Positions 6,245-26,724 are shown, counted from the first letter of the stretch. The stretch: DNA of 64,000 bases from Phycisphaerae bacterium (GCA_026004655.1 BPJO01000003.1:122254-186253); one strand, 5' to 3'. The notes: generated by a model not told the origin, from the letters alone. Numbers and translations: made by a program.

Positions 6245-8842
6245 TTACTCGATATTTCCGCTGCGCATGGCGTCTCGCCGGGTTAATACCGTTGACTGCG
6301 GAACGAACCCGAGTACGAGAAAGCTTCCACTTCCCCTTAGATCAAGAGTTTGTCTGCCGGCATCGTATCGCAAGGCATGAATGTCCAACGACGGGCAACC
6401 GTCGATCGTGGCAGCATTATCGATGCATGGTTCGCATCCTCCCCGATGCGAAGCCATCGCATCCAGTTCCAAGTCGGGCGGGCGACGCCAGATCGGTTTG
6501 GGACTTTTAAAATATCCGATCAAAGCCAGCACCGGTTCGGGAGACTCAAACTCGATTAGTGGCAGGGTACCGGATTTGGCTTGGTCTTGTGAGAATCGGA
6601 TCCCTGTCAAACCGACCAGTTCTGGTGCGATCGATCGGATCGTGTATCCCCGGTCGGTAAAAACCTTAGCCCCGGGTCGGACGTCGTAGACTTCGGCATG
6701 GGGTGAAATGAGGCGGATTTTACTTTTTCTAAAGGGTTTGATGTGGCTTTCATCCGGCCCTTCCGGTTCGCCACGTTTCAGGCGTTCCACCCGATCACGG
6801 AACTCTCGCAACTCGGCTTCATAGATGGGTAAGAGATGTCGCCAGTGATAGTTGTCACGTTTGTCGCCGAGTCCTCCGGGGACAGGGATGCGCCGTTGTT
6901 CGGTCTGCATCGTGTTGGCGAAATGGTAAGTCGTTTCGGTCAATCGAGTGAGTTCACGAAAATATTCGAAACTTTCGTGAAGGTGTTGTTCGGCCTCGAT
7001 CATGTCTTGCAGATCGCGGGTATGTGAATACCGCAGCACTCCGATGGCGGCCCGGACTTTTGCGACATAATTTCGGCTCATCGCGGTGATGCAGGCGATA
7101 TCATTCGCGATACGCTCAAACTCCGGTTGGTTCTGAGTGACATAAGAACGGGCTCGAGCGATTGATTCGGAGGCCCGTTGTGCGAATTGCAACACTTCCT
7201 CACAGATCTGCGGGGGTGTTTCACCTTCATGAGGCAAGTTCTGGACTTCTTTTTCGACGAACTCCTGCAGGCGTTCTCCGGGAGGGGATTGCGATTCCCA
7301 TAACTCTTCGAATGGTCTGTACTTGGCCGGATTTACCAGTTGATCCAGAAGCATTCCCAGGGACATAGTTTGTCGGTTGCCTTCGGTGATACCGAATCGC
7401 CGCAGCAGACGCGGAGCACATTCTCCGATGTCATTCAGCGCGTCAAGGATATGTTCGGCTGCCTTGGTGCTTCCGTACAGGTCAGCCAGTTTCCGAACCC
7501 AGTAGGCGCGATCTTCGTCTTCATCAATATGAGGGTTCCAGGCATACCTAGCCCAAGACTCGAACCACATCCAATCGCGGTCGATCTGACGAAGGGGAGG
7601 CATCGCCACGTCCGGTGAATCCGGCCAGTTCCAATAGGCTAGCGGATACAAGTGAATCCCTTTGGCCCCCAATCGGTCAATGGCCGCCCGAACGCATTTT
7701 TTGATGAATCGCTGGGCGCCGTACCTGAAGGGTTCGAGATTAGCCAGGATGTGGACATTGATCAGATGGGTGGAACCTAATTGACTCATCGACAAGTGAA
7801 CATTCTGTCGGACGCCTCGTGGTTCCCAGGTGGTCAATGATTCGCCGTTGTATTTGGCTTCGGTATAGAGATTTTTGTGGACTTTTAACGCTTCGGGGAC
7901 TACTTTTTTGGCGTCGGTGGCATGGGTCCTAAGAACAACGGGTGGTTCGACTGTGATCCCTGCTCGTTTCATTCCATCGTGAATTCCCCCGAGACAAACG
8001 TCGCAACACCAGAGGATTTGGTTTTCGAGCCCTTGCAAGGCTTCTCCGAGACAGATCATCAGTCCCACACGCGGAAACTGTACGACAAACTCGGCAATAC
8101 ATTTGCGCATGTAGTCACGGGCTTCGGGGGTGGGGGCTGACAACTGTGTGTCACAGCCATGCCGTTCGGCAAACGGTTTGGGCAGGATAATGGAGTAAAA
8201 GTTCTGGACCAGCCAGATTCCCCGACGGTCACATTCCGAGGCCAGCCAATGAAACATTTCCACATTCTTATCAAAGATTTCCGGAGTGACCTCCACCGCA
8301 TACTCATACCCTTTTACTCTGACCAGCGATGCGAAGGGATGTCCTGACCACAGATAAAGCGTGTTGAATCGCCAATCGACCAGCCTGTCCAGATATTCGG
8401 TCCAATGGACTTTGTCATAAAAAAATGGGAACAAGTCGGGGGTGTAGGGGTATTCGTAAACTTTTCGACCCGGCAAGTAATAAGTCTTTTGCATCCCGAT
8501 ACAAGGCCCCCTCAGCACCCAGTTGGGTGCATCGGAGAAATGGATCTGGTCGGGAATGCGTCCTTGCGTGCGGATCAGGTCACATAACGCGAGGGCTCCG
8601 TACAGTAGCCCGGAATCAGAACCCGCTATCATAATCGACCCGTCTGATTCCGTCCGAATCTCGAAACCTTCCGGACAAGCCGATTGTTCGATACCGACAA
8701 ACCGGATCACACGCCCGTCATCGGGTAGCGCTGCCTGAAGTCGTCGAGCCGCGTATAAAACGCGCTCGGACGCATTGGACGGAAGGATCATACGCCCTTG
8801 AATTGCAGCATCACCTGGATACACGGGTTCATCCCTCCCCAT
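6245..8842 (-). CDS. Putative glycoside hydrolase with a GH20b/alpha-glucuronidase-like N-terminal domain and a TIM-barrel core
   Basis: 865-aa ORF. The N-terminus ([33 protein letters not shown]...DAPNWVLRG) resembles the zincin-like N-domain found in GH20/GH67/GH115 enzymes. An alternative start at 8791 (MILPSN) would remove the 14-nt overlap with the upstream gene. Confidence 0.45.
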
Positions 8843-10406
8843 AAACGATTTTGTTCAAATCGCGGTAAACGATTCCATCATTCGGATCACGTCGGATACG
8901 TAATGCAATCCATGGGCGTCCGGGAAGACGTACGACTGGTCCGTCCGCAACTGCTCGGTACGTGTCAGGTTCGCGCATGACATAGGAGTGTGGCAACGCC
9001 TCGATGGTCATGTTCCAGGTATCAATCACGTCCACAAAGAAACGCATCTTGGCGTTTAATCCGACTTGTGGAAGATCAAAGTTCCATTCGGTGCGTCGTT
9101 CTTTCCCGAAATAGATCAGGTAATACTGACCGGGTTGACCGACGGTGTACACGTCCTGCCATTTGTCGATGGGTTCGAGTCCCTCTTTAGGACCTTCTTC
9201 AAGGATTTTCCGTAAAAAAGCGATTCGGGAGGGGCTTTGACCGTACAACTGACCTCCCCGGGCCCACCAGATGATGTCTTGGGGATGCAAATAGGTTTCG
9301 CCGTGCCCGACATACGTTCCCGCAATGGTTCCCTGCCAAAAACGATGAACCATCTCCTCAGCGGTGAGGTTGCCCCATCGTTGGGGGATATTTCCCTCAT
9401 ACTTGACTTCATCAAAGACACAGGGTTTGCGATAGACATCCCGATAAAGGACGGCTCTACCAAAATCCTCTACAGCACTTCCGTTCTGAATGCTCGCGTG
9501 GGTGACCCACTTCTGATTGTGGTCGTAAATCAGACGACCGTTGTGAATCGAACGCAGATGGCCGTACGGGTCGGACTCGACCACGATACGGGCATATCGT
9601 TCCCAGTCCGCCGGTGTTTTGGTGGTCATGAAGTCGAACTCGTTGGCTAAAGACCACCAGACATTCCGATAAGCCGACAGACGGGCGATCACGTATTTGA
9701 GATAGCGGTCGTCCGAGGCTTCGTCCATCCGGTCGAATCCCCAGCGGCCCTTATCATATGGGTGGAATAAAATAATGTCGGCTTCGATCCCTAAATCCCG
9801 AAGTTGTCCGACCCGCTTCTCGAAATGCTGGAAAAAACGAGGGTTGAAACGCGTCGTATCCCACTGGTTCGGGGGAGTACCTTCAAACGGGTACAAGGGG
9901 GGCTCGTTTGAGTTGAACGCGTAATTCTTGGGAAATACGCACATCCGAATCTTATTGAACGGGGAATGCCTGAGCGTTTCGAGGGTTTGAGACTCGAGCT
10001 CTTCCCCTTGATGGGTCCAAGCGTAGGCAGTGGTTCCGATCTGACGATAAGGTGTACCGTCGGAGTAAGCAAAATGAAAAGTATGCGCTACCCGGACCGG
10101 TCCGTGATTATTCCCGGTCGGGGCAATGCAAGTGAATGATCCTGATTTGCCGGTTAAAGAAGGGTGATTCGAATGGGTTATATACGTCCATTCACCCTGA
10201 GATACAGGCATAAACCGAACCCGATAAACCCCTTGACCGTCGTAAAATCCGCTGACGTTGATCTGACGGTCCTGGCATCGAAAAGTTGCACTTAAGTCGA
10301 TATCAACAAAAGGATTGTTGCTGGAAGGCCCGTGGAGAACCAGCTCAAAAATATCCCACTGCTCGATGCGTTCAGGCACGTCGTCCTCCTCTGAGAACCT
10401 GACCAT
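8829..10406 (-). CDS. DUF5060/DUF4038-type glycoside hydrolase (GH5/GH140-like TIM barrel with C-terminal beta domain)
   Basis: 525-aa ORF. The N-terminal beta-sandwich ([26 protein letters not shown]...[25 protein letters not shown]) matches what I recall of DUF5060. It is followed by a cellulase-like core (WWSLANEFD...) and a C-terminal domain. Confidence 0.6.
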
Positions 10407-10448
10407 ATCTCCTGATCGTGGACAGGGTATCCGATCCTGCGGAAAATA

Positions 10449-10466
10449 TTTGCAAATTTGCGCAAA
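10449..10466. promoter_or_regulatory. Two abutting perfect palindromes (TTTGCAAA, TTTGCGCAAA) in a divergent promoter region; candidate operator
   Basis: Read directly at 10449-10456 and 10457-10466, within the 128-bp gap between the divergent genes ending at 10406 and starting at 10535. Confidence 0.25.
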
Positions 10467-10534
10467 GCCACACTCCGCTTTTTGTATTGTACGAATCTCC
10501 CAATCGGTTGTATCTCAGCCAATGACTGATTAGC

Positions 10535-13030
10535 GTGACCTTCATGTTACCAGCGTTAAGACAACGTCTGCGGATGGACCTGGATTGGCGATTTTGTTTA
10601 GGAGACCTCGAGACACCACTGGCCAACACACACATCGCAGCCTACATGAATAACAAAGCCGGTTGGGCAAGAGGTCCGGCTCGTGGGCCTTATGATGATT
10701 CCGACTGGCGACAAATCAGACTACCTCATGATTGGTCAGTTGAAGGACCGTTCTCTCCCGACCATCATCTCAACGCAGGCTATTTACCCCGCGGCAAGGC
10801 TTGGTACAGACGCCATTTTAAGCTGGATGAGCAGGACCGTGGGAAGCGTCTGATCCTTGAGTTTGACGGAGTCTCCACTTTCTGCATCGTTTACGTCAAT
10901 GGGCATCTGCTGCACCGGCAGTTTTGCGGATATACCCCGTTTTCAGTCGATTTTACGGATGTTGCTCACTTCGGAACTCAGCTCAACACCGTTGCCGTCA
11001 AGGTGGATGCGACTTATATGGAGGGGTGGTGGTACGAAGGAGCGGGCATCTATCGGCATGTTTACCTACACAAAAAACCGCCTGTTCATATTGACGATAT
11101 TCAAGTCATTTCAAACCCGACCTCACAAAACCAGGCAGAGATTGTCGTCAAGACCACCCTCATCAATACGACTGATCAGGACGTACCTATCTTTGTTCGG
11201 ACGAAGATTGGATCTCTCGTCACTGAGGATTCTGCGGTAATATCACTTTCTCGGTGCTCCACAGCGGTTGTCACTCAAACATTGCACTTATCCAACGTTC
11301 GGCGTTGGTCGGTCGATGAGCCGCATTTATATGGGTTGATGGCTGAGTTATATCAACCCAATCATACCCTTGTGGATCATTGTCAGACCCGTTTTGGTGT
11401 TCGGACGATTCGGTTCGATCCGCAGAGAGGTTTTTTCCTGAATGGGAATCATTTATTGTTGAAAGGGGTTTGCATTCACCAGGATCATGCCGGGGTGGGA
11501 GTGGCGGTACCGGATACGATTCAACGATTTCGTATTCAACGTTTGAAAGAAATGGGTTGCAACGCCATTCGGCCCGGCCATCACCCGCTGGCCCCGGAAG
11601 TCATGGACGCCTGCGACGAGGTCGGAATGCTGGTTTTGGGGGAAAATCGTAATTTCGGTTCGTCGCCCGAACATCTTCATCAGCTCCAAGCCATGATCCG
11701 ACGAGACAGAAATCGTCCGTGTGTGTTGGCTTGGTGTTTGTGCAATGAGGAACCGATCCAGACCACCCCGATCGCCAAAAACATCGCCCGAACGATGGCG
11801 CATCACGCACGGCAGCTCGATCCGACTCGTCCGATCACCGTCGCCATGAGCGGGGGATTGCTGAACGACGATTCCATGGCCGATGTCGTAGACGTCATGG
11901 GAATCAATTATCAGTTGTCTCAGCATGATGCGTTTCATGAAAAATACCCAGACCTGCCCGTTTTCCTCTCCGAAACCAACTGCACGTACGCCACTCGCGG
12001 CGAGGATCGGACGGACCCGGCTCATCACCGTTTTGCCGATCGAGATGTCGAGCACGCGCCTTGGGGAAGCACCGCTCGGACGGTCTGGGAGCACGTCCAG
12101 TCCCGTCCGTGGATTGCAGGGTATTTTGCGTGGACCGGGTTTGATTATCGGGGTGAACCTTCTCCCCATGAATGGCCGAGTGTTTTATCCCACTGGGGGA
12201 TCATGGATCTTTGCGGGTATCCCAAGCAGTCTTACTATCTCCACCGTCAGTGGTGGACCGGGGAATCCGGTTCTCCTCTACAGTTGCCAGAACGACTGAC
12301 GTTGGAAATCGATCCTGCCTTTAGCTCTCCCATCGTAGCCGACGGGCATTGCACCATTCCCGTCCGTGTTTCCAAGGCCGGGGACAATTCACTAATCCGG
12401 TTCGAAGTGACAGGACCCGCCCGGATTATTGGGGTAGGCAACGGGGACCCAACGTCTCACGAACCGGAACAAGCATCGGAACGGAAATTATTCCATGGTT
12501 TGGCGCAAGTCCTTGTGCAGACAACAGATACCCCAGGAGAGATCACAATCAAGGGGTACGGAAACGAAGTGGCCTGTTTGACAGTTGTTTCTCAGCCCAT
12601 TCCCGAATCGAATCAGGTCCCCCCAGCACCGGTGCGGTATCTGATCAGCGAATGGATGATGAGTCCGATCTTCTCAGCCAGGCCTGATCCTAACATGATT
12701 CCCGAAGCCTCGGACATGAACACGTGGGTGCGTGTCACCCCCGGTCCGAGTGCTTGTCAACCGTTCGAAAGGCAATCCGGATATGCGTTATACCGTGCGA
12801 CCGCCAAGTTACCGAAAAAGTTTCAACCGACCGGGGCCTTGCTCAAACTGCACGAAGTAACAGGGGATGTGGAAGTGTATATCGCAAATAACCTGGTTTC
12901 TGATCGACAGGGGCTTTACCCGATTCCACCCGGGGTTTCCCAAACCGTCGTATTGCTTGTTCGAGGCCGACACGGATGCGGTCTCAAACAGGCTGGCGAA
13001 ATTCTGTCGTTGGATTGCGCAGATTTATAA
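10535..13030 (+). CDS. Glycoside hydrolase family 2 (beta-galactosidase/beta-glucuronidase-like)
   Basis: 831-aa ORF with a GH2 sugar-binding N-domain (DWRFCLGD..., WRQIRLPHDW). The TIM barrel carries NAIRPGHHPLAPEVMDACDEVGMLVLGE and an acid/base-like WCLCNEEP motif. The start is GTG 10535 or ATG 10544. Confidence 0.8.
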   Translation: MTFMLPALRQRLRMDLDWRFCLGDLETPLANTHIAAYMNNKAGWARGPARGPYDDSDWRQIRLPHDWSVEGPFSPDHHLNAGYLPRGKAWYRRHFKLDEQDRGKRLILEFDGVSTFCIVYVNGHLLHRQFCGYTPFSVDFTDVAHFGTQLNTVAVKVDATYMEGWWYEGAGIYRHVYLHKKPPVHIDDIQVISNPTSQNQAEIVVKTTLINTTDQDVPIFVRTKIGSLVTEDSAVISLSRCSTAVVTQTLHLSNVRRWSVDEPHLYGLMAELYQPNHTLVDHCQTRFGVRTIRFDPQRGFFLNGNHLLLKGVCIHQDHAGVGVAVPDTIQRFRIQRLKEMGCNAIRPGHHPLAPEVMDACDEVGMLVLGENRNFGSSPEHLHQLQAMIRRDRNRPCVLAWCLCNEEPIQTTPIAKNIARTMAHHARQLDPTRPITVAMSGGLLNDDSMADVVDVMGINYQLSQHDAFHEKYPDLPVFLSETNCTYATRGEDRTDPAHHRFADRDVEHAPWGSTARTVWEHVQSRPWIAGYFAWTGFDYRGEPSPHEWPSVLSHWGIMDLCGYPKQSYYLHRQWWTGESGSPLQLPERLTLEIDPAFSSPIVADGHCTIPVRVSKAGDNSLIRFEVTGPARIIGVGNGDPTSHEPEQASERKLFHGLAQVLVQTTDTPGEITIKGYGNEVACLTVVSQPIPESNQVPPAPVRYLISEWMMSPIFSARPDPNMIPEASDMNTWVRVTPGPSACQPFERQSGYALYRATAKLPKKFQPTGALLKLHEVTGDVEVYIANNLVSDRQGLYPIPPGVSQTVVLLVRGRHGCGLKQAGEILSLDCADL

Positions 13031-13116: not shown

Positions 13117-14550
13117 GTGTCTGTAACGTTCTTTCCCAAAACACAACGTCCGATCACCTTGGGTGTCATTATCGGGAATCGGGATTTTTTCCCCGACGTT
13201 CTAGTCGGTGAAGCCAGGAACGACTTACAGAAACTCTTTTCCGAATTGGGAATACGATCTGTCATGTTGACCCCGGAGCAAACCAAACTCGGAGGAGTCG
13301 AAACATTTTCAGACGCCCGCAAGTGTGCAGAGCTGTTCATCGAAAATCGTTCGCTGATCGATGGTGTACTGGTCTGCCTGCCCAACTTCGGGGATGAAAA
13401 AGGGGTTACCGACACGTTAAAACTCAGCCGGTTGGATGTTCCGGTGTTGGTTCAAGGATACCCTGATGACCTGAGCTTGCTGGGTGTAGAACGTCGTCGC
13501 GACGCGTTTTGCGGGAAGATTTCAGTCTGCAACAATCTCAAACAGGCTCGTATCCCGTTTACGTTGACATCCCGTCATGTTGTGCACCCATCGGATCCGA
13601 CGTTTCGAGCAGATTTAAGTCGGTTTGTTGCGGTGTGTCGGACGGTCCGAGGGTTGCGTGGGGCAAGATTCGGCGCTGTCGGTGCAAGACCGGGGGCTTT
13701 TAATACGGTTCGATACAGCGAAAAAATTCTCGAATCATATGGGATTTCTGTTACGACGATCGATTTATCAGAGGTCTTGGGTCAAGCCGCCCGATTGAAA
13801 GAGTCCGATCCTCGACTGACTGCAAAGCTTTCTGAAATCAACGGTTATGCGCCCGCAGAGTCGGTTCCGAAGGACAAGCTGGTACAGATGGCGCGTCTGG
13901 GCGTAGTGCTCGATCAATTCGTTGAGGACAACGCTTTGGACGCCACTGCCATTCAGTGTTGGACCAGTCTCCAGGCCAACTGGGGTTGTAATGTCTGCAC
14001 GTGCATGAGCATGATGAGTGAGAAACTGTTGCCAAGCGCCTGTGAGGTGGACATCACCGGGGCGCTGAGCATGTATGCCTTGTCTTTGGCATCACAGCAA
14101 CCTAGTGCTCTGGTGGACTGGAACAACAATTATGGTTCGGACGAAGACAAGTGTGTCCTGTTTCACTGCGGGAATTGGCCCAAGGCATTTGCACCGGATA
14201 CGCGAATCGCCAACGCGCCGATTCTGGGTTCGACGTTGGGGGTTGAAAACACCTGGGGAGCGATGGAAGGTCGTACCCCGGCCGGGCCTTTGACGTACGC
14301 CCGTTTTACGACCGACGACACCCACGGGGTGATTCGCGGCTATGTCGGTGAAGGAAAGACCACGAATGACGAATTAAAAACCTTCGGACATCGTGCCGTT
14401 GCATACGTTCCACGGTTACAGTCACTGCTTCATTTCATTTGTGAAAACGGTTTTGAACACCACGTCGCGGTAAATCCGTCCGCCTGTAGCAAGATCATTG
14501 CCGAAGCCTGCGGGAAATATTTGGGGTGGCAAATGTATTCCCATGAGTAA
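13117..14550 (+). CDS. L-fucose/L-arabinose isomerase-family sugar isomerase
   Basis: Track ORF 12976..14550, trimmed to GTG 13117, which follows GGAGGAGG and removes the overlap with GH2. Features include ITLGVIIGNRDFFPD, SACEVDITGALSMYAL and FHCGNWP, with a size of ~477 aa. These are consistent with FucI-like isomerases as I remember them. Confidence 0.65.
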   Translation: MSVTFFPKTQRPITLGVIIGNRDFFPDVLVGEARNDLQKLFSELGIRSVMLTPEQTKLGGVETFSDARKCAELFIENRSLIDGVLVCLPNFGDEKGVTDTLKLSRLDVPVLVQGYPDDLSLLGVERRRDAFCGKISVCNNLKQARIPFTLTSRHVVHPSDPTFRADLSRFVAVCRTVRGLRGARFGAVGARPGAFNTVRYSEKILESYGISVTTIDLSEVLGQAARLKESDPRLTAKLSEINGYAPAESVPKDKLVQMARLGVVLDQFVEDNALDATAIQCWTSLQANWGCNVCTCMSMMSEKLLPSACEVDITGALSMYALSLASQQPSALVDWNNNYGSDEDKCVLFHCGNWPKAFAPDTRIANAPILGSTLGVENTWGAMEGRTPAGPLTYARFTTDDTHGVIRGYVGEGKTTNDELKTFGHRAVAYVPRLQSLLHFICENGFEHHVAVNPSACSKIIAEACGKYLGWQMYSHE

Positions 14551-14553
14551 TCT

Positions 14554-15393
14554 ATGACATACACGGACAAGCAACTGCAAATGAAATCGGTCGAGTACCG
14601 TCGCCGGATTCTCAAAGCTATCGCCCATGCCGGCGCAGGTCATACCGGAGGAAGTCTGTCCTGTGTAGATATTCTTAACGTCTTATACAATCGGGTTTTG
14701 CGGGTTGACCCTGCCAACCCCACCGACCCCACGCGAGACCGGTACATTCAAAGCAAAGGTCATTCGGTCGAAGCGTTGTTCGTGGTCCTGGCGGATCGCG
14801 GGTTTTATGACCAATCGCTTCTTGAGACCTTGTGTCAATACCGGTCGCATTTTGTCGGGCATCCGACACGAAAAGTACCCGGCGTGGAGTTCAATACCGG
14901 CGCTTTGGGTCACGGATTGTCGCTGGGGGTGGGATGCGCACTTGCGAGCAAAAAAGACCTTGCCGACTTCCGGACGTATGTCTTACTCGGGGACGGAGAA
15001 CTCGCAGAGGGATCCAACTGGGAAGCCGCCATGTCCGCTGCTCATTATCGACTGGATAACCTGATTGCTATCGTCGATCACAATACCCTTCAGATTACCG
15101 GTCGAACACGGGACGTTTGCAGTAATGAGCCTTTGGATGAAAAGTGGCAAGCCTTCGGCTGGGAGGTTCGAACCATCGACGGGCACTGCATTGCTCAAAT
15201 CACTGAAGCATTAACGCGACCTTCAAAAGGTTCGCCGGTGTGCATAATTGCCAACACCCGAAAAGGCAAAGGGGTCAGTTTCATGGAAGACGTCGGCAAA
15301 TGGCATCACGGGGTTCCGACTGACAAGGAATTACAGATGGCGTTACAGGAACTGGATCTGGCATTTGCTGAACTGGAATCGGGGGTGAACTGA
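14554..15393 (+). CDS. Transketolase, N-terminal (TPP-binding) subunit of a split transketolase
   Basis: 279 aa. Motifs: GHTGGSLSCVDIL, GHSVEALF and the TPP motif GDGELAEGSNWEA. Its stop overlaps the next start by 1 nt (TGATG). Confidence 0.85.
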   Translation: MTYTDKQLQMKSVEYRRRILKAIAHAGAGHTGGSLSCVDILNVLYNRVLRVDPANPTDPTRDRYIQSKGHSVEALFVVLADRGFYDQSLLETLCQYRSHFVGHPTRKVPGVEFNTGALGHGLSLGVGCALASKKDLADFRTYVLLGDGELAEGSNWEAAMSAAHYRLDNLIAIVDHNTLQITGRTRDVCSNEPLDEKWQAFGWEVRTIDGHCIAQITEALTRPSKGSPVCIIANTRKGKGVSFMEDVGKWHHGVPTDKELQMALQELDLAFAELESGVN

Positions 15394-16391
15394 TGAGTGC
15401 ACCTGCGCCTTCGATGTTCAGTCCCCAAGCGAGTGAAATGGCCAAATCACTGGGTTTGAAACCAGGAAAAGCCAATCTTGAACAATTCGCCGACACCTTG
15501 ACTCTTCTTGCCCGGAAAGACCGTCGTATTTTGGCGGTGACCAGCGACTCGCGGGGCAGCGGCAAGCTCGGACCTTACGGACAGGAGCTACCCGATCAGA
15601 TCGTCGAGGTGGGCATTGCTGAGCAAAACCTTGTCGGTGTGGCAGCCGGTCTGGCATCGTGCGGGAAAAAAGTCTTTGCGGTGTCGCCAGCCTGCTTTTT
15701 GGCAACCCGGGCACTGGAACAGATCAAAAACGACGTCTGCTACTCGGACATGCCTGTAGCCTTGATCGGAATCAGCGCGGGGGTGAGCTATGGTGCACTG
15801 GGAACGACGCACCATTCCCTCCACGATTTTGCCGCTCTTCGTGCGATCAATAACCTGTCTATCCTTGCTCCCGGAGATAATGCCGAATCCCGACTGGCCA
15901 TCGAATATGCCGCCCGGTCTGAGCATCCGGTATATGTCCGTTTCGGAAAAGCCCCGTTGTATGACCTTCCTGCGTCTGAATCTCTTCAAGTGGGTCAGGC
16001 CAGGGTTTTACGAAACGGATCGGATCTGGCTTTTATCGCTACCGGGGAAACGGTCATTCATGCTCTTTTGGCCGCGGAGCACCTTGCCGTGTTTCATCAG
16101 ATTCAGACCCGTGTAATCAGTCTACATACCCTTCGGCCGCTGGATAGCGAATCGATTCTACAGGCTGCCCGACAGTGCAGGGCCGTTATCACTGTCGAAG
16201 AACACATGGTTCATGGAGGATTGGGAGAAGCCGTTGCAGGGCTTGTGTTGCAAAGCGGACTTAAACCCCGATTCCGAATCGTTGGCATCCCTGACGAGTA
16301 TACGGTTACCGGTGCGCAGGCGGATATTTTCCGGCATTACGGGATCAGCATGGAAGGTTTGTCACAAACCGCCCGTCAACTGCTCGCCTGA
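15393..16391 (+). CDS. Transketolase, C-terminal (pyrimidine-binding) subunit
   Basis: 332 aa. Motifs: VEVGIAEQNLVGVAAGLA, GTTHHSLHDFAALRAINNL and TVEEHMVHGGLG. Confidence 0.85.
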   Translation: MSAPAPSMFSPQASEMAKSLGLKPGKANLEQFADTLTLLARKDRRILAVTSDSRGSGKLGPYGQELPDQIVEVGIAEQNLVGVAAGLASCGKKVFAVSPACFLATRALEQIKNDVCYSDMPVALIGISAGVSYGALGTTHHSLHDFAALRAINNLSILAPGDNAESRLAIEYAARSEHPVYVRFGKAPLYDLPASESLQVGQARVLRNGSDLAFIATGETVIHALLAAEHLAVFHQIQTRVISLHTLRPLDSESILQAARQCRAVITVEEHMVHGGLGEAVAGLVLQSGLKPRFRIVGIPDEYTVTGAQADIFRHYGISMEGLSQTARQLLA

Positions 16392-16399
16392 GGAGTGGC

Positions 16400-17872
16400 A
16401 TGTATCTTTCGATCGATCAAAGTACTTCGGGAACCAAAGCGATCCTGTTTGACGTTTCCGGACGGGCTGTTGCGCGGGCTTCACAGGAACACCGACAAAT
16501 CTACCCCCAGCCCGGATGGGTCGAACACGATCTTGAAGAAATATGGAGCAACCTTTTAACCATCGTTCGGGAGATTCGGGAGCAGTTTCCTGAAGCCGTG
16601 AAAAAACTGCAGACCGTGTCGATCACCAATCAGCGTGAAACGATCTGCGTTTTCGATAAAAAAACCGGCCGACCACTGCACCACGCGATGGTCTGGCAGT
16701 GCAGACGGGGTGAACTCATTTGCCAACAGTGGAAACACGACGGATTGGAAACCGAGATTCGGTCTAAAACCGGTTTGCGGGCGGATGCTTACTTCTCGGC
16801 ATCAAAGTTAGCGTGGTTGACCCGAAATCATTCTGCATTGAAAGAACAGCTCCATCACGGTGATGCGCTTGTCGGAACGATTGACACTTACCTGATTTAT
16901 CGTCTGACTCGTGGGAAGGTTTATGCGACCGATCACACCAACGCCAGTCGTACGTTGCTGTACGATATTTACAAACTCACATGGGACAAGACGTTGTGTG
17001 AGCTGGTGGGATTGAAAGCCGACTCACTACCGGGGGTGTACGATTCATCCGGGTATTACGGTACGACGGATATGGAAGGAATCTTGGATCAGCCCGTCCC
17101 GATCGTGGGAGTTATAGGGGATTCTCAGGCATCATTGTTTGCCGGGGGGTGTGAGAAACCGGGACAAACCAAAGCCACGCTGGGCACCGGTACTTCGGTG
17201 ATGACCACCGTGGGTTCGAACCCACCTTCGCGTTGCCGAGGAACAGTTGCAGCCTTGGCATGGACACACCAATCACAACCGACCTACGCGGTCGAAGGAA
17301 TCATTCACAGCTCGGCTGCTACAATCGAATGGTTGAAAAATCAGCTGGGACTTTTCAAATCGGCTGACGAGTGCGAAACCCTGGCCAAAACCGTTCCGGA
17401 CAACGGGGGGGTTTATTTGGTCCCAGCCTTTGGTGGTCTAGGAGCACCTCATTGGGTTCCCGAAGCCAGAGCAGCCATTGTGGGATTGTCAACCCACTCA
17501 ACCCGGGCACACGTGGCCAGAGCAGCAATCGAATCCATCGCGTATCAGATCGCCGATGTCTTAGATCTAATCCGAGTGGAATCCGGAGTAACACCTACAG
17601 TGCTAAGAATAGATGGTGGCGCTTCCAGAAACCGTATGCTGCTACAGATGATTGCCGATATCACAAACCTTCCCTTGACTGTCGCGGGAATGTCTGATGG
17701 ATCCGCATTGGGCGCAGCCATGATGGGAGCCTGGGGGACCGGCAAACCAATGGCTCATCCGGAGACGGATCAAACCATCATTTGCCCCTCCGAAAATCGG
17801 GACAAGACATCCCGGATTCGAGAAGGATGGTTCCGGGCAGTCAAACAGGTTCTGGTCGGTCAAGACGGATAA
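16400..17872 (+). CDS. FGGY-family carbohydrate kinase (glycerol-kinase-like)
   Basis: 490 aa. The N-terminus LSIDQSTSGTKAILFD, the segment ITNQRETICVFD and GGASRNRMLLQMIADI are typical FGGY signatures. Confidence 0.85.
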   Translation: MYLSIDQSTSGTKAILFDVSGRAVARASQEHRQIYPQPGWVEHDLEEIWSNLLTIVREIREQFPEAVKKLQTVSITNQRETICVFDKKTGRPLHHAMVWQCRRGELICQQWKHDGLETEIRSKTGLRADAYFSASKLAWLTRNHSALKEQLHHGDALVGTIDTYLIYRLTRGKVYATDHTNASRTLLYDIYKLTWDKTLCELVGLKADSLPGVYDSSGYYGTTDMEGILDQPVPIVGVIGDSQASLFAGGCEKPGQTKATLGTGTSVMTTVGSNPPSRCRGTVAALAWTHQSQPTYAVEGIIHSSAATIEWLKNQLGLFKSADECETLAKTVPDNGGVYLVPAFGGLGAPHWVPEARAAIVGLSTHSTRAHVARAAIESIAYQIADVLDLIRVESGVTPTVLRIDGGASRNRMLLQMIADITNLPLTVAGMSDGSALGAAMMGAWGTGKPMAHPETDQTIICPSENRDKTSRIREGWFRAVKQVLVGQDG

Positions 17873-17883: not shown

Positions 17884-18861
17884 ATGTCTATCACAGAATC
17901 GCAGATGCGGGCGGTTTATGAGCAAGCCAAAACCCCCTATAAACTGGGTGTGATCATCAAACCGGAAGGTCCGGATGATCTGGTGGATTGTCCGAGCGTG
18001 TTTCGACACGGACAGGCATGGTACATGATCTATGCCGCCAGTCGAGGGAAAATCGGTTATGAAACCAAACTAGCCCGAAGTCAGGACCTGATCCATTGGG
18101 AAACGCTCGGAACGATCCTTCCATTCCGACAGGGAGCCTGGGACTGTTGGCAGGCCGACGGGGGAGTGGCTTTGATCGATCCAGAATGGGGAGGAACTCA
18201 TCAACTCCAGAAACACAACGATCATTACTGGCTAAGCTATCTCGGGGGAGCACTTCAGGGGTATGAAACCGATCCCCTATCCATTGGTGTTGCCTATACG
18301 AATGATCCTACAACTGCTCAGGAATGGAATCGTTTCGATCGACCGGTCTTGTCTCGCGAAGACCCGGATGTACGAGATTTTGAAAAGGCCACTCTCTATA
18401 AAAGCAATATCATCCGCGATCCCAAACGACAATTGGGATATGAGTTTGTCATGTTTTACAACGGCAAACAGGCAGGGAAAGTAGGAACCGAACGGATCGG
18501 AATGGCTGTGAGCAACACGATGACCGAATGGAAGCGATTTGGTTCCGGTCCTGTTATTGATAACGGTCCGCGTGGAATCAGCGGTGACCCGCAAATCGTC
18601 CGAATGGGAAACCTGTGGGTGATGTTCTATTTCGGACATGTCTGGAAACCAAAGGCATTTGACACATTTGCGGTCTCTGAGGATCTGGTGAACTGGACAT
18701 TATGGCAGGGACCTCACCTGATCGAGCCCAGTGAACCGTATGACAACACCTTTGCTCATAAACCTTGGCTGATCAAGCATGACGGAGTGGTTTATCACTT
18801 CTATTGTGCAGTCGGGAATCAGGGACGGTGTATTGCCTTAGCCACGAGCAAGAAAATCTAA
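17884..18861 (+). CDS. Five-bladed beta-propeller glycosidase/phosphorylase-like protein (GH43/GH130 clan-like)
   Basis: Track ORF 17782..18861, trimmed to ATG 17884 (MSITESQ) to remove the overlap with the kinase. Repeated blade-like motifs (CPSVFRHGQAWYMIYAA, IGVAYTNDP, FVMFYNG, IGMAVSNTMTEWKR, WVMFYFG, VYHFYCAV) fit this clan. Confidence 0.55.
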   Translation: MSITESQMRAVYEQAKTPYKLGVIIKPEGPDDLVDCPSVFRHGQAWYMIYAASRGKIGYETKLARSQDLIHWETLGTILPFRQGAWDCWQADGGVALIDPEWGGTHQLQKHNDHYWLSYLGGALQGYETDPLSIGVAYTNDPTTAQEWNRFDRPVLSREDPDVRDFEKATLYKSNIIRDPKRQLGYEFVMFYNGKQAGKVGTERIGMAVSNTMTEWKRFGSGPVIDNGPRGISGDPQIVRMGNLWVMFYFGHVWKPKAFDTFAVSEDLVNWTLWQGPHLIEPSEPYDNTFAHKPWLIKHDGVVYHFYCAVGNQGRCIALATSKKI

Positions 18862-18864
18862 AAC

Positions 18865-21800
18865 ATGACAGCAACCGAGTTTTTATCGCAATTTGTTGAT
18901 CCTGATCCTCGATTCGGACCAATCCCGGCTTGGTGGTGGAGCGGCGATAAGCTGTCCTGGGATCGGATGCAATGGCAAATGGACCAGATGTTCGGGATGG
19001 GAATTCGCAATCTGGTCATCATTAACCTCGCTCCCAACGGTACCCTCTTTGCCTCCGAGCCGGATGACCCACCTTTCCTATCGGAATTGTGGTGGGATTA
19101 TTTTCGAAAAACCTGCGATTACGCAGCCCAAAAAGGGATGAAGATCCTTTTCTATGACCAGATCGGGTTCAGTGGTGCAAACTTTCAAGCGGATCTAATT
19201 GCATCGAATCCGCAGTTCTCCGCGTTGCAGCTCAAACGACTTTCGGTAGAGGGTCATGGTCGGTTATCTCTGCAATGTCCCGGGGCTGGGCAACCCCTGG
19301 CTGCGTATCTGGTAAAAGATTCTTCGGTACAATACGTGGAACTGGAAAAAGACAAATCGGTTGTCGTTCATACCGATGTTCATGCCAAGCTGTCATTGGT
19401 TTACACCGTCCGACAAGGATTTGATCTTTTTTCTGTTCCTGCCTGTCAGGCTTTGTTGGATACCGTGCACCGTCAATTCGAAAAACGCTTACCCGACCAT
19501 ATTGGAAAAACAATCATCGGGAGCTTCCAGGACGAACTTCCAGAATTACCCACATGGGGAGTTGATTTTGCAGAATCGTTCAAACAAACCTACGGTTACG
19601 ATTTGCCAAGTGTAATTCATCGTCTGTTCGAACCCGGCGATGATCAATCCCGACTTACCCGGATTCATTATCACTCACATCGGGCACAACGGGCAGAGAG
19701 ATCGTTTTTCAAGCCGTTTTATGAATGGCACGAATCCCACGGGATGGCTTGTGGGTTTGATCAACAAAGCCCCGCCCGGGAAGCCCGTGTTCTAGGATGT
19801 ACTCAGAAATATGCAGACTACATGCGTGTGCATCAATGGTACGGCATGCCGGGCTGTGATTTGCACGGGAACGGAAAACTGCATTCTTCTATTGCGCATC
19901 TGCATCGTCGCAAACGTGTCTGGTTGGAAGGATTTCATTCCACCGGATGGGGAGGCACGATCGCCGATACGTTTGACTGGCTTTTGCCTTATCTTCGGTC
20001 AGGATCCAATTTATATAACCCTCACGCGATTTATTATTCCACCCGAAAGGGATGGTGGGAGTGGGCACCTCCGAGCACCTGTTGGCGTCAACCTTATGCC
20101 ATGCATTACAAACCCTTTGCGGAGATGATCGCACGGCTATGCAAACTGCTTACCCAAGGAGTTCATCAAGCAACCGCGGGAGTTCTTTTCCCGACAACAA
20201 CGGTCCAGAGTGCACTCGGACCTTGGGAAGGATTTGATGAAGCTAAACAAACCGATCAGGTGCTTCATGAGACGATCGGTTCAATGCGCTGGCATCAGGA
20301 AAAGATCGGACCTTTAGACGAAATCGGAATCGACTACCATTTGCTAAACGATCAGGCTATTGCGTCGGCAACTCTCACCGGCGACCGGCTGGATGTCGCC
20401 GGAACGTTATTGCAAGTTATTATTTTACCAAAGGTTACAGCCATTGATGCCCGTGCAGCCGATAAGCTCATCGGGTTTGCCCGTCAAGGCGGAAAAATCA
20501 TTTCCATCAACAGCGCCCGTGCACTGACCACACAAGGACAATGGATCGAATGGTCTGACATCGGGACAGTCATTCAGCATGCAGACCAACTCAAAGACCT
20601 GCTACAGTCGATCGATCGACCCTTCCGGGCTCCGGTCCAAGTGATGCACCGTAAAATATCAGAAGACCTAGACCTGCTCTTTGTTCCTGCCATCACAGGA
20701 ATGGCCACGGTCGTCAAATGGCCCGGATGGTTTGAAAAAATGGAGCACACCACAATCGTCTCGGATCGTTACGCCAAAGAATTGCTCCTCCAGCTCCCTG
20801 AGCCTTGTCGGGTATTTCGTTTTGATCCGACGGACGGATCGATCCGATCATTGTCGGTCAATAACACACAGTTCACAATCGATTTCGAGGGTTGTCCCTT
20901 TGCGGTTTTGGTCGTTGAACGACAATCATCTTCGCAGACGGATGTCCGAATCCAACCTAAACCCCATCGAAACCTCCCCAATGAGTGGCAGGTTTTTTAT
21001 CATCCGACTTTACCTCAGGAATTTGTTGATACGCACGACCCTCTTCGTCCTGAGCTGTGTTGGCCTCACACAACCGAGTTTTCGTGGGAAATGACTCCCG
21101 AGGATCGGTCTGCCGGATTGCGTAAACCCGAAGCGGTTCTGTCCGGTTTTGGTGGACGTGCCTGGAAAAAATCGGACAAAACCGATCGCGAGCCGGTGAT
21201 CTATTCACCCGAGTTTGGTATTGCCCAGGATCGGCTGCACATTCATACCTTAGGTCCCAAGGGACATGTTCCGGAAGAGTTCATTGATCTGGGTAAGATT
21301 TCTCCGGATGATCCCGTGACGGTTCATGTTGCGATGGAAATTGAAAAGCCTCAAAAAGCCATTCTGATGGTCGGTTCGTCTGCGCGAAAGCATGCTCGTC
21401 TGAACGGGAAAGAGGTGGGGTCCTGTATTGACCGATATCAGTGGGTGACAGATCCATTATCACTCGAATCCGGGAGAAATGAATTACAACTCACCCTTGC
21501 AGTGGCGAAAGAACAGAATGTCCGTCTCTGGTGGTGTTGGGTTGATCCCCAACGAGTCACCGAATGTGTTCGTCCGGAACGGATCTGGTTGGATGCTACC
21601 CCCGTTTTCGGAACTAAAATCCTTTACCGAAGGGTCTTTGACTGTGCGACGACACTAACGGACGGACAGGTTAAGGTATCGGTTGCTGCCCTGGCCAAGG
21701 TGTGGTTGGACGGGAAACTGATTGGACAGCAAGGGGGATGTGACCCGTATCGCCCGATGATGCGGGGTAATGTTTACAAACTTCCGGAACTTTCTCCGGG

Positions 21801-23765: not shown

Positions 23766-23791
23766 AAGTTTCTATTGACTATTTTTGATCT

Positions 23792-25975: not shown

Positions 25976-26049
25976 CCTCACACATCTCCTGCCGAAAAAG
26001 TAGGTTTCAGAATATCCGTGACGGGTGGTGGAAAGATTGCGTGATCGCG

Positions 26050-26724
26050 TCAACTTATTACACGATCGCGCAATATCTGAACGATTCTCTGTACCGCCAG
26101 TCTGGGGCTGGACAAAACAGGAATGTCCATCTGCCCGTTTGGTAGGGCGTCGATAGCCCGGGCCATCGATGCTTGAGCAAGAAGAACGACATCCACTTTT
26201 TCGGCCAATTGTCGTACAGCGTTGGCGACGAGTTGATCGTGTTTTTGGGTGTCCCCGTTCATGACCGCCGAAAAGGCACCCTCGATCACATTTGCAAAAA
26301 TTTGAACCTGTCTGGACTGTTGAACGGATTTTTGCTGAACGAGAGATCGCGTCGGGTCAAGGGTCGAAGGGAGTGTTGCGACGATCCCGATGCGTGTACC
26401 GATTGCAACTGCCTGGTCGACCATGGCTTCGTCAGCACGAAGAACCGTTGCGGGAACCAATACCCGGGATGCTTCTACGGCAGGACCCATCGACGAACAC
26501 GTGACCAGGATGACGCCGGCCCCGGCATCCGAAGCTGACAACACATGACCGCAAAGCCTTCGAGCCGTCCCAGGGGGACAGGTCCCGTGTTCGATAATAT
26601 CGCACAGGAGACTTTCATCCACCATGTTGAAAACCCTTGCCAAGGAACCGATTTGTTCATCGATCAGGGGTTTAAATACTGGAATCATGGAGGGGGATGT
26701 ATGAATCAATGCAACAACACTCAT
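26050..26724 (-). CDS. Asp/Glu/hydantoin-racemase-fold protein (single conserved Cys)
   Basis: 224 aa. The first active-site-like motif VILVTCSSMG places Cys at residue 76. The second motif position reads LLAQASMA, with Ser rather than Cys. A 4-nt start/stop overlap links it to the upstream kinase gene. Confidence 0.65.
   Translation of the reverse strand: MSVVALIHTSPSMIPVFKPLIDEQIGSLARVFNMVDESLLCDIIEHGTCPPGTARRLCGHVLSASDAGAGVILVTCSSMGPAVEASRVLVPATVLRADEAMVDQAVAIGTRIGIVATLPSTLDPTRSLVQQKSVQQSRQVQIFANVIEGAFSAVMNGDTQKHDQLVANAVRQLAEKVDVVLLAQASMARAIDALPNGQMDIPVLSSPRLAVQRIVQILRDRVIS

What the first reader, a model, noticed from the sequence alone, without database searches (positions are those of the whole stretch)
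13117..17872. Isomerase, split transketolase and FGGY kinase cassette embedded in the GH operon: candidate ketose-phosphate cleavage route for a rare (apiose-like) sugar
Four contiguous, tightly spaced genes encode a FucI-family aldose-ketose isomerase, a two-subunit transketolase and a glycerol-kinase-like FGGY kinase. They are flanked by GH2 upstream and by GH-like and GH106-like genes downstream.

A dedicated split transketolase next to a sugar kinase is the logic of the transketolase branch of D-apiose catabolism. In that branch apulose kinase acts with apulose-4-phosphate transketolase AptA/AptB (Carter et al. 2018, from memory). As far as I recall, the isomerase in that pathway belongs to a different fold. 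A FucI-like isomerase here would therefore be a non-orthologous variant, or a pathway for a different branched or rare RG-II sugar.
Basis: partly seen in the sequence, partly recalled or inferred. Interest (0 to 1): 0.6.

Follow-up and report, generated by a model that had tools for sequence, protein, structure and literature searches.

The report
Apiose breakdown operon, substitute isomerase
Four adjacent genes inside a pectin (rhamnogalacturonan-II) degradation locus of a hot-spring Planctomycete most likely burn the branched plant sugar D-apiose by the already known transketolase route, but the first step is done by an uncharacterised, widely conserved enzyme family of a different fold from the known apiose isomerase.

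Summary
Four co-directional, tightly packed genes occupy 13117-17872: a FucI/AraA-fold isomerase, a split transketolase and a glycerol-kinase-like FGGY kinase. They sit in an RG-II-type glycosidase operon.

- **Transketolase.** Concatenated subunits fall in a 100/100-supported clade with E. coli and Pectobacterium AptA/AptB. They share its active-site changes (D469L, H461S/N, F434P/A, loss of R358).
- **Kinase.** It is not a true GlpK (516 bits; kin GlpKs score 647-744). It shares Q246S and F270S with apulose kinase AplK.
- **Isomerase.** The canonical ApsI, a PF01261 TIM barrel in Pectobacterium, is absent. The isomerase here folds like L-arabinose or L-fucose isomerase at about 13% identity.
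- **Conservation.** Isomerase, both transketolase subunits and kinase recur in 56 of 64 informative related loci across Planctomycetota, Verrucomicrobiota and Bacteroidota. They often lie beside an apiose-cluster-type ABC importer or RG-II genes.
- **Mosaic cluster.** A Paludibaculum locus joins an E. coli-type apt set to this isomerase.

No enzyme activity was tested. This is a new variant of a known pathway. The scan has noted the same cassette many times on other DNA. One point stays unexplained: this split enzyme is the only transketolase found in the genome.

The parts
13117..14550 (+). Isomerase with a FucI/AraA fold (477 aa). Predicted to convert D-apiose to D-apulose, replacing ApsI non-orthologously.
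   Evidence: Pfam matches Fucose_iso_C only, and the only NCBIfam hit is weak (SftI, 87 bits). The AF2 model has pLDDT 85.7. Foldseek top hits are L-arabinose isomerases (TM 0.80) and FucI or D-arabinose isomerase (TM 0.75), at 12-14% identity. There is no PDB sequence hit, even with a profile. Identity is 61-79% across phyla, and the gene lies next to the transketolase genes in 60 of 64 loci.
14554..15393 (+). Split transketolase, ThDP-binding N subunit (AptA-like, 279 aa).
   Evidence: It is 48% identical to E. coli SE15 AptA. Pfam Transketolase_N. It carries the clade membership and site signature described.
15393..16391 (+). Split transketolase, pyrimidine-binding/C-terminal subunit (AptB-like, 332 aa).
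   Evidence: It is 41% identical to E. coli AptB. It has L358, P434, S461, L469 and K520 where canonical transketolases have R, F/Y, H, D and R.
16400..17872 (+). GlpK-like FGGY kinase (490 aa). Predicted apulose kinase.
   Evidence: It scores 515.8 bits on TIGR01311, below the 590 cut-off. E. coli AplK scores 495 and Pectobacterium AplK 469, while true GlpKs of kin score 647-744. It has S246 and S270 like AplK, where GlpK has Q246 and F270.
8829..10406 (-). DUF5060 / apiosidase-like / DUF5605 hydrolase without an evident signal peptide. Candidate apiose-releasing enzyme of the locus (context only).
   Evidence: Pfam Apiosidase, 65.5 bits. Orthologs at 47-58% identity lie beside the isomerase or cassette in L045, L054, L068, L072, L088 and L098. 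N-terminus shown.
10535..13030 (+). GH2 (GalA-like beta-galactosidase type), first gene of the same rightward operon (context only).
   Evidence: Pfam GH2 domains; NCBIfam GalA at 800 bits, below the cut-off.

Best explanation
The cassette is a cytoplasmic D-apiose catabolic module of the transketolase type, in three steps.

1. The FucI/AraA-fold isomerase converts D-apiose to the ketose D-apulose. D-apiose would be released from RG-II-type oligosaccharides by the surrounding glycosidases, most of which show no signal peptide.
2. The GlpK-like kinase phosphorylates one hydroxymethyl arm of apulose's glycerol-like C(OH)(CH2OH)2 group, giving apulose-4-phosphate.
3. The AptA/AptB-like split transketolase moves the C1-C2 ketol unit onto glyceraldehyde-3-phosphate. 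This gives xylulose-5-phosphate and DHAP.

**Shown here:** gene order, homology, clade membership, shared active-site substitutions, the fold of the isomerase, and conservation of the cassette and its contexts.

**Inferred:** the substrate of each enzyme, the metal ligands of the isomerase (invariant E310, D334, H350 and H448/H449, by analogy with AraA), the cytoplasmic site of apiose release, and co-transcription with the glycosidase genes.
For: **Transketolase**
- The N and C subunits are 48% and 41% identical to E. coli SE15 AptA and AptB. The paper PMC13001218 names these genes and reports that strains carrying the cluster grow on apiose.
- In a tree of concatenated subunits, a 19-row clade with 100/100 support holds four groups. 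They are E. coli and Pectobacterium AptAB, the Paludibaculum and Chloroflexaceae pairs, the L111-type pair, and the whole cassette clade. Eight of the nine generic fused transketolases sampled lie outside it.
- All 19 rows of that clade have L or M at TktA position 469, S or N at 461 and P or A at 434. The seven fused enzymes with canonical residues keep D469, H461 and F/Y434.

**Kinase**
- It scores below the GlpK cut-off, as AplK does. Genome G006 carries both a true GlpK and a cassette kinase.
- All 25 transketolase-linked kinases, AplK included, have S246 and S270. All 10 true GlpKs have Q246 and F270.
- The maximum-likelihood tree places those 25 on one side of a branch.

**Isomerase slot**
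- The Pectobacterium cluster has a PF01261 TIM-barrel protein there.
- No homolog of it occurs in the window or in the 80 related loci.

**Context**
- 60 of 64 loci have both transketolase subunits downstream of the isomerase, and 56 of 64 also have the kinase.
- Many loci carry an SBP-DUF2291-ATPase-permease importer with the same architecture as the E. coli and Pectobacterium apiose clusters.
- Paludibaculum L080 runs AptA-like, AptB-like, AplK-like (45%), SorC regulator, ABC importer and then this isomerase (65%) on one strand.
- Apiosidase-like genes abut the isomerase in L068, L072 and L098.

**Not housekeeping**
- The cassette is patchy among kin: 4 of 19 genomes in the family, always with isomerase and transketolase adjacent.
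- Canonical AraA, AraB and XylB lie elsewhere in the genome.
Against: - No member of this isomerase family has a tested activity. The sequence libraries offer only a weak sulfoquinovose-isomerase match.
- In the N-subunit-only tree of 161 representatives, the group joining AptA and the cassette has only SH-aLRT 84. Generic split transketolases are also 43-54% identical to the window protein, so percent identity alone does not discriminate.
- The kinase tree does not resolve a sister relation to AplK (support 64/56). The window kinase is slightly closer overall to E. coli GlpK (38%) than to AplK (34%).
- The residue roles I assign come from my knowledge of E. coli and yeast transketolase and E. 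coli GlpK structures, not from an AptAB or AplK structure.
- The generic transketolases in the concatenated tree were limited to fused proteins among the top 150 hits.
- This genome has no DUF2291-type importer.
- The split enzyme is the only transketolase found in the genome, so a wider role cannot be excluded.
- An OiaK/OiaX-like RuBisCO-like-protein cassette lies 9 kb downstream and could also be an apiose route.
Confidence: 0.75

Rival explanations
1. The enzyme logic is the same (isomerase, kinase, ketol-cleaving transketolase), but the substrate is a different rare or branched sugar rather than D-apiose. It could be another RG-II component, or an apiose-like sugar from a microbial glycan in hot-spring mats.
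For: - The isomerase is of a different fold from ApsI and has no characterised close relative.
- The cassette transketolase differs from AptAB at positions 358 (L versus A), 461 (S versus N) and 520 (K versus G).
- The cassette kinases form their own clade.
- The DNA is found in hot-spring and microbial-mat metagenomes, where plant pectin is not an obvious substrate.
- A second, RuBisCO-like-protein cassette resembling the oxidative apiose route lies nearby.
Against: - The kinase keeps the GlpK residues that hold a glycerol-like triol (R83, E84, W103, Y135, D245) and shares AplK's two substitutions. This fits apulose and few other RG-II-derived ketoses.
- Mosaic clusters (L080, L098) combine this isomerase with AplK-clade kinases, AptAB-near transketolases and SorC regulators like those of the enterobacterial apiose cluster.
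- Most other RG-II sugars are poor candidates. 2-O-methyl sugars cannot undergo a 1,2-isomerisation. From my own stereochemical reasoning, L-fuculose, L-tagatose and L-rhamnulose lack the configuration transketolases accept.
Confidence: 0.13
2. The transketolase and kinase are the organism's housekeeping transketolase and glycerol kinase. They merely sit in a sugar operon next to an L-fucose or D-arabinose-type isomerase.
For: - The split enzyme is the only transketolase found in the genome, which is 93% complete, and the kinase is the only GlpK-like gene.
- No phosphoketolase was found, although XylB and AraA/AraB are present and make pentulose phosphates.
Against: - The four-gene unit is conserved as a block across at least three phyla.
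- It is absent from three of four other genomes of the genus and from most of the family. Several of those kin show no transketolase at all.
- Canonical substrate-binding residues R358, H461, D469 and R520 are all replaced.
- The kinase fails the GlpK equivalog cut-off and lacks Q246 and F270.
- G006 has both a true GlpK and the cassette kinase.
- No fucK, fucA, araB or araD lies in the cassette.
Confidence: 0.05
3. The isomerase belongs functionally with the nearby RuBisCO-like-protein / DUF1537-kinase cassette. It would isomerise L-aceric acid to its 2-ketose, a close analogue of 3-oxo-isoapionate. The transketolase and kinase would serve another step.
For: - The RLP, OiaK-like and racemase-fold genes directly follow the kinase in L040, L041 and L064 and lie within 10 kb in several other loci. 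An aceric-acid-hydrolase homolog directly follows the kinase in many Opitutaceae.
- By my own chemical reasoning, the 2-ketose of aceric acid differs from 3-oxo-isoapionate only by one methyl group.
Against: - The isomerase is linked to the transketolase in 60 of 64 loci. The RLP cassette is linked in only 9 of 80 loci.
- Many cassette loci have no RLP genes at all. These include the Bacteroidota loci with an ABC importer and L111-L113.
Confidence: 0.05

Closest known systems
Transketolase-type D-apiose pathway: ApsI, AplK, AptA/AptB (Carter et al. 2018, Nat Chem Biol 14:696, cited from memory and via PMC13001218 and PMC13753588; MetaCyc PWY-8089)
   Same: - The logic is the same: three steps and four genes.
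- The split transketolase lies in the same strongly supported clade and has the same D469L, H461S/N and F434P/A signature.
- The kinase is a near-GlpK FGGY enzyme with the same S246/S270 pocket as AplK.
- Related loci carry the same SBP-DUF2291-ABC importer architecture and SorC or DeoR regulators.
   Different: - The isomerase is not ApsI. ApsI is a PF01261 xylose-isomerase-like TIM barrel of 332 aa in Pectobacterium. Here it is a 477-aa FucI/AraA-fold protein.
- The kinase and transketolase form their own subclades at 34-48% identity to the enterobacterial enzymes.
- In this genome the module is embedded in an RG-II glycosidase operon without a monosaccharide importer.
E. coli / E. fergusonii apiose cluster (PMC13001218)
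   Same: It is another natural case in which the ApsI step is filled by something else while AplK and AptAB are kept.
   Different: E. coli carries two SDR oxidoreductases, which that paper hypothesises replace ApsI. Here a single isomerase of the FucI/AraA fold fills the slot. No SDR pair is conserved in the cassette loci.
L-arabinose isomerase AraA and L-fucose / D-arabinose isomerase FucI
   Same: The predicted three-domain fold is the same (TM 0.74-0.81). A Pfam Fucose_iso_C match covers the C-terminal part. Invariant acidic and histidine residues lie at positions similar to the AraA metal ligands.
   Different: Identity is 12-14%. There is no sequence-level hit to any solved AraA or FucI, even with a profile. 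The protein is about 115 aa shorter than FucI. Its gene partners differ, and the genome has its own canonical AraA.
Sulfoquinovose isomerase SftI (NCBIfam NF048012)
   Same: It is the only named family hit, and it is also a short FucI-like isomerase.
   Different: The score is 87 bits against a cut-off of 700. There are no sulfoglycolysis genes in the context.
Glycerol kinase GlpK
   Same: It is the best structural and sequence relative (Thermus GlpK, 420 bits). R83, E84, W103, Y135 and D245 are conserved.
   Different: The score falls below the equivalog cut-off. Q246S and F270S remove two residues of the glycerol pocket. The protein forms a separate clade from the true GlpKs of the same family of organisms.

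Membership tests
Transketolase-type D-apiose pathway (ApsI-AplK-AptA/AptB) | Two-subunit transketolase orthologous to AptA/AptB | tested here: met
   48% and 41% identity to E. coli AptA and AptB. The concatenated-subunit tree gives a 100/100 clade with E. coli and Pectobacterium AptAB that excludes eight of the nine generic fused transketolases sampled. The N-subunit-only tree is weaker (SH-aLRT 84).
Transketolase-type D-apiose pathway (ApsI-AplK-AptA/AptB) | AptAB-type active site rather than canonical transketolase substrate residues | tested here: met
   The window has L469, S461 and P434, and AptAB has L469, N461 and A434. TktA and seven generic fused transketolases have D469, H461 and F/Y434. 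Residue roles are taken from my knowledge of TktA and yeast transketolase.
Transketolase-type D-apiose pathway (ApsI-AplK-AptA/AptB) | FGGY kinase of the AplK kind | tested here: inconclusive
   It shares S246 and S270 with AplK and a sub-cut-off GlpK score. Identity to AplK is only 34%, and the common clade has weak support (64/56).
Transketolase-type D-apiose pathway (ApsI-AplK-AptA/AptB) | ApsI, a PF01261 TIM-barrel D-apiose isomerase | tested here: not met
   No homolog occurs in the window or in the 80 cassette loci. The best match in the genome is 24% identical on another contig. The slot is filled by a FucI/AraA-fold protein.
Transketolase-type D-apiose pathway (ApsI-AplK-AptA/AptB) | Activity on D-apiose, apulose and apulose-4-phosphate | not testable with these tools
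   This needs enzyme assays or genetics.
L-fucose isomerase / L-arabinose isomerase superfamily | Three-domain AraA/FucI fold | tested here: met
   AF2 model with pLDDT 85.7 and pTM 0.90. Foldseek E 1e-24 to AraA (TM 0.80) and E 1e-17 to 1e-20 to FucI and D-arabinose isomerase.
L-fucose isomerase / L-arabinose isomerase superfamily | Sequence-level membership of FucI or AraA proper, with their partner genes | tested here: not met
   Only Pfam Fucose_iso_C matches, and no FucI or AraA NCBIfam model hits. There is no PDB sequence hit. No fucK/fucA or araB/araD lies adjacent, and canonical AraA-AraB lie on contig C1.
L-fucose isomerase / L-arabinose isomerase superfamily | Mn2+ ligands and catalytic acids in place | tested here: inconclusive
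   E310, D334, H350, E447, H448 and H449 are invariant in 20 sequences from five phyla. Their positions parallel AraA E306, E333, H350 and H450. No residue-level structural alignment was available to me.
Glycerol kinase GlpK (TIGR01311 equivalog) | Score over the curated cut-off and an intact glycerol pocket | tested here: not met
   515.8 bits against a cut-off of 590.35, while kin GlpKs score 647-744. Q246S and F270S are present.
Housekeeping transketolase | Canonical sugar-phosphate binding residues R358, H461, D469 and R520 | tested here: not met
   They are replaced by L, S, L and K. Even so, this is the only transketolase found in the genome.

The most novel reading that the evidence does not exclude
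The cassette could be more than an apiose module. In this genus no canonical transketolase and no phosphoketolase were found, yet XylB and AraA/AraB are present. The remodelled AptAB-type enzyme may therefore double as the cell's only link between pentose phosphates and glycolysis. Alternatively, these bacteria may route pentose phosphates by an undescribed path. A second possibility is that the FucI/AraA-fold isomerase serves both branched RG-II sugars. It would feed apiose to the transketolase arm and aceric acid, as its 2-ketose, to the adjacent RuBisCO-like-protein arm.
Probability: 0.1. Interest if true: 0.75.

Novelty: new variant of a known kind. Interest (0 to 1): 0.5.

Why it matters
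- **Ecology.** D-apiose is a signature sugar of rhamnogalacturonan-II, apiogalacturonan and many plant glycosides. Knowing which bacteria can use it helps explain who profits from pectin breakdown in soils, guts and mats.
- **Annotation.** The word-filtered search scored 8000 relatives of this isomerase, the cap of the search. Databases label them 'L-fucose isomerase-like', their partners 'transketolase' and 'glycerol kinase', and no curated model names any of them.
- **What one experiment would buy.** A single biochemical assignment would correct thousands of annotations across Planctomycetota, Verrucomicrobiota and Bacteroidota, with variants in Chloroflexota and Acidobacteriota. It would add a second, non-orthologous fold to EC 5.3.1.38.
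- **Ready-made rules.** The site signatures give testable sequence rules for telling these enzymes from their housekeeping look-alikes. For the transketolase they are L469, S/N461 and P/A434. For the kinase they are S246 and S270.

Tried and rejected
- **Literature.** Full-text searches found nothing linking this isomerase family to apiose. The term sets were 'apulose' plus transketolase, 'apiose isomerase', apiose plus 'fucose isomerase', apiose plus transketolase plus RG-II, and transketolase plus fucose isomerase plus 6-deoxy. Carter et al. 2018 (PMC6435334) is not held, so its content is cited from memory and through two papers that cite it.
- **Percent identity to AptA.** I rejected it as a discriminator, because generic split transketolases are equally similar.
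- **Sequence-level comparisons of the isomerase.** Comparison of the isomerase alignment with E. coli FucI gave nothing usable (hhalign probability 0.5). A profile search of PDB sequences found only a chance hit.
- **Reaching Pectobacterium.** I used the search for homologous proteins plus look-up of encoding contigs instead.
- **GH140 (PF13204) among kin.** All four cassette genomes have it, but so do eight genomes without the cassette. It is therefore not discriminating.
- **Isomerase paralogs.** Paralogs at 38-54% identity in kin are not linked to a transketolase, so they were left out of the orthologous group.
- **Expression.** No RNA holder is listed among public runs.
- **Not run.** I did not run read laying or complex prediction. 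The two transketolase halves are a textbook pair.

Full report
**What is there.** ORF listing and domain scans confirm four co-directional genes on the + strand.
- An isomerase at 13117-14550. Pfam matches Fucose_iso_C only. The sole NCBIfam hit is a weak 87-bit match to sulfoquinovose isomerase SftI.
- A transketolase N subunit at 14554-15393.
- A transketolase C subunit at 15393-16391.
- An FGGY kinase at 16400-17872.

The isomerase start at GTG 13117 is preceded by GGAGGAGG and matches the roughly 470-aa length of homologs. Gaps between the four genes are 3, -1 and 8 nt. The next gene starts at 17884.

**The surrounding locus.** It looks like an RG-II degradation locus.
- An aceric-acid-hydrolase-like gene at 2-1711.
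- An alpha-galacturonidase-like gene at 6245-8842 (996 bits on the BT0997-type model).
- An apiosidase-like DUF5060/DUF5605 hydrolase at 8829-10406.
- A GH2 gene at 10535-13030.
- A homolog of the N-terminal part of BT0996 after the kinase.
- Further right, a Gfo/Idh/MocA oxidoreductase, a PL1 lyase, and an OiaK-like plus OiaX-like RuBisCO-like-protein cassette.

Homolog names and related loci point to a Tepidisphaeraceae-type Planctomycete. The DNA occurs in hot-spring and microbial-mat metagenomes.

**Is the transketolase generic or AptAB-like?** I fetched the E. coli SE15 apiose cluster named in PMC13001218: aplK, aptA and aptB, plus SBP, DUF2291, ATPase, permease, two SDRs and a SorC regulator. 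The window subunits are 48% and 41% identical to AptA and AptB.

That figure alone means little. An exhaustive search shows that many split transketolase N subunits are 43-54% identical to the window protein. In a 161-row N-subunit tree the cassette clade (100) sits with the AptA clade in a 36-row group of only moderate support (SH-aLRT 84).

Concatenating both subunits gives a clear answer. A 19-row clade with 100/100 support contains:
- E. coli and Pectobacterium AptAB;
- the pairs from Paludibaculum (L080) and a Chloroflexaceae MAG (L098);
- the L111-type pair;
- three fused representatives (P0124, P0134, P0135);
- the whole cassette clade.

Eight of the nine generic fused transketolases sampled, and E. 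coli TktA, fall outside it.

Site mapping onto E. coli TktA numbering agrees.

| TktA position | TktA and seven generic fused enzymes | AptAB | Window and cassette |
|---|---|---|---|
| 358 | R | A | L |
| 434 | F/Y | A | P |
| 461 | H | N | S |
| 469 | D | L | L |
| 520 | R | G | K |

In TktA these residues bind the sugar phosphate and the C4 hydroxyl of the donor (my knowledge of the E. coli and yeast structures). Their joint replacement fits a donor with a quaternary C3 and a phosphate only one carbon away, as in apulose-4-phosphate.

**Is the kinase a glycerol kinase?** Its best solved relatives are all GlpKs, but it scores 516 bits on TIGR01311, below the 590 cut-off. E. coli AplK scores 495 and Pectobacterium AplK 469.

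Among 30 relatives the scores are bimodal. True GlpKs score 647-744 and the cassette kinases 516-537. One genome (G006, unpublished) carries both kinds.

An alignment numbered on E. coli GlpK shows R83, E84, W103 and D245 conserved throughout. All 10 true GlpKs have Q246 and F270. All 25 transketolase-linked kinases have S246 and S270. Those 25 include both AplKs, the L080, L109 and L111 kinases, and the Planctomycete/Verrucomicrobial and Bacteroidota cassette clades (first seen).

F270 packs against glycerol in GlpK. A serine there would make room for the glycoloyl substituent that distinguishes apulose from glycerol (inference). The maximum-likelihood tree puts the 25 on one side of a branch, but weakly (64/56).

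**What is the isomerase?** The AF2 model (pLDDT 85.7, pTM 0.90) matches L-arabinose isomerases (TM 0.80) and FucI or D-arabinose isomerase (TM about 0.75) at 12-14% identity. Neither phmmer nor a family profile finds any solved structure by sequence.

The family is very conserved, at 61-79% identity from Planctomycetota to Bacteroidota. It has invariant E310, D334, H350 and H448/H449, which recall the AraA metal ligands. I could not verify this in three dimensions.

**Is it different from the known apiose isomerase?** I located a Pectobacterium carotovorum AptA and read its neighbourhood. The order is SBP, DUF2291, ATPase, permease, AptA, AptB, FGGY kinase, a 332-aa PF01261 TIM-barrel protein, and a SorC regulator. 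The TIM-barrel protein gives weak xylose and rhamnose isomerase hits.

It is the gene that PMC13001218 says is missing from E. coli, namely apsI. No homolog of it occurs in the window or in any of the 80 related loci. The genome's best match is 24% identical on another contig. The FucI/AraA-fold protein is therefore a non-orthologous occupant of the isomerase slot.

For the characterised enterobacterial cluster that is not so.

**Conservation and context.** Of the 80 best loci encoding this isomerase, 64 have at least 5 kb downstream. Sixty of those carry both transketolase subunits on the same strand, and 56 also carry the kinase: 32 Verrucomicrobiota, 12 Planctomycetota, 10 Bacteroidota and 2 Pseudomonadota MAGs. 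Twenty-six of the 80 have at least one RG-II-type neighbour.
- An aceric-acid-hydrolase homolog directly follows the kinase in many Opitutaceae.
- The RLP/OiaK-like cassette directly follows it in L040, L041 and L064.
- The apiosidase-like hydrolase abuts the isomerase in L068, L072 and L098.

Many loci also carry an SBP-DUF2291-ATPase-permease importer (Pfam check on L087). This is the architecture of the E. coli and Pectobacterium apiose clusters.

The most telling locus is Paludibaculum L080. On one strand it reads:
- AptA-like (50%);
- AptB-like (40%);
- AplK-clade kinase (45%);
- SorC regulator (41%);
- DUF2291, ATPase, permease and SBP;
- this isomerase (65% to the window).

A further clade (P0125, L111-L113) has the order transketolase N, transketolase C, FGGY kinase, isomerase (50%) with no glycosidases nearby.

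**Housekeeping rival.** The split enzyme is the only transketolase, and the kinase the only GlpK-like gene, found in this 3.45-Mb, 93%-complete genome.

Several findings argue against a housekeeping role.
- The cassette is patchy: G000, G003, G006 and G011 among 19 genomes of the family, always with isomerase and transketolase adjacent.
- Several kin show no transketolase at all.
- Other kin have a fused short-type or canonical enzyme.
- The active sites are remodelled, as described above.
- Canonical AraA and AraB (ribulokinase, 674 bits) and XylB (600 bits) lie elsewhere, so the isomerase is not needed for L-arabinose.

No phosphoketolase was found in the genus either. How these bacteria connect xylulose-5-phosphate to glycolysis is therefore unexplained.

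**Mechanism proposed.**
1. D-apiose is freed from imported RG-II-type fragments. Most glycosidases of the locus show no signal peptide, and no DUF2291-type importer was found in this genome.
2. The isomerase converts it to apulose.
3. The kinase phosphorylates apulose to apulose-4-phosphate.
4. The transketolase splits this with GAP into Xu5P and DHAP.

All substrate assignments are inferences from homology, shared site signatures and context.

**Novelty.** The pathway is known. The isomerase family in this role is not described in any paper I could search, and no curated model names any of the four proteins. The scan has noted the same cassette repeatedly on other DNA; those are unchecked AI notes, which I did not use as evidence.

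- a direct check of the canonical ApsI fold;
- the strongly supported AptAB clade;
- the two residue signatures.

I rate it a new variant of a known kind, with interest 0.5.

Claims resting partly on the unpublished genome G006: that a true GlpK and a cassette kinase co-exist in one genome, and one of the four cassette-bearing kin.

Noticed in passing
whole genome G000 and genus g1 (G001-G004); window 14554-16391: No canonical or short fused transketolase and no phosphoketolase was found in any of the five genomes of this genus (84-95% complete). XylB and AraA/AraB are nevertheless present in G000. G001 and G002 show only DXS-level matches (47-49 bits), and G004 shows no match at the threshold. 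How pentose phosphates reach glycolysis here is unexplained.
   Followed up: partly
window 22674-29200: A Gfo/Idh/MocA oxidoreductase, a PL1 lyase, a racemase-fold protein, an OiaK-like kinase (294 bits against a cut-off of 700) and an OiaX-like RuBisCO-like protein (487 against 700). All are below the equivalog cut-offs of the oxidative apiose route. In L040, L041 and L064 the RLP and OiaK-like genes directly follow the cassette kinase. By my reasoning, the 2-ketose of aceric acid is a methyl analogue of 3-oxo-isoapionate.
   Followed up: partly
window 8829-10406 (-): The 'GH140-like' gene matches the Pfam Apiosidase model only weakly (65.5 bits) and has DUF5060 and DUF5605 ends. Its orthologs sit right next to the isomerase in three phyla. 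The genome's strong GH140 match (375 bits) lies on contig C14. This may be a separate, uncharacterised apiosidase-related family.
   Followed up: partly
window 13117-17872: The stretch is held at 61-100% of sampled words by 20 runs from 12 studies of hot-spring and microbial-mat metagenomes, many of them possible sources of the assembly. An RG-II/apiose locus in that habitat raises the question of where the substrate comes from.
   Followed up: no
window 6245-13030 and 17884-22677: The glycosidases of the locus (alpha-galacturonidase-like, apiosidase-like, GH2 and the 1270-aa protein) show no obvious N-terminal signal peptide, whereas the beta-helix protein at 1690-4869 does. This suggests that imported oligosaccharides are trimmed inside the cell.
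   Followed up: no
L083, L084, L086, L087, L088, L093 (Bacteroidota loci): Bacteroidota versions of the cassette insert a CUT2 ABC importer (SBP, DUF2291, ATPase, permease) between the transketolase and the kinase, under a DeoR regulator. This is an unusual transporter type for that phylum and hints at horizontal transfer of the whole unit.
   Followed up: partly
G020:C254:3961-7124: A distant paralog of the isomerase (30% identity) lies next to a fused 634-aa transketolase-like gene in a related Phycisphaerae genome. This may be another isomerase-transketolase pairing with a different substrate.
   Followed up: no
G000:C11:43549-44848 and C12:12666-13155: The DXS-like and E1-beta-like genes appear split over two frames, one with an in-frame TGA. 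This is in line with the frameshift patches that other notes report for this assembly.
   Followed up: no
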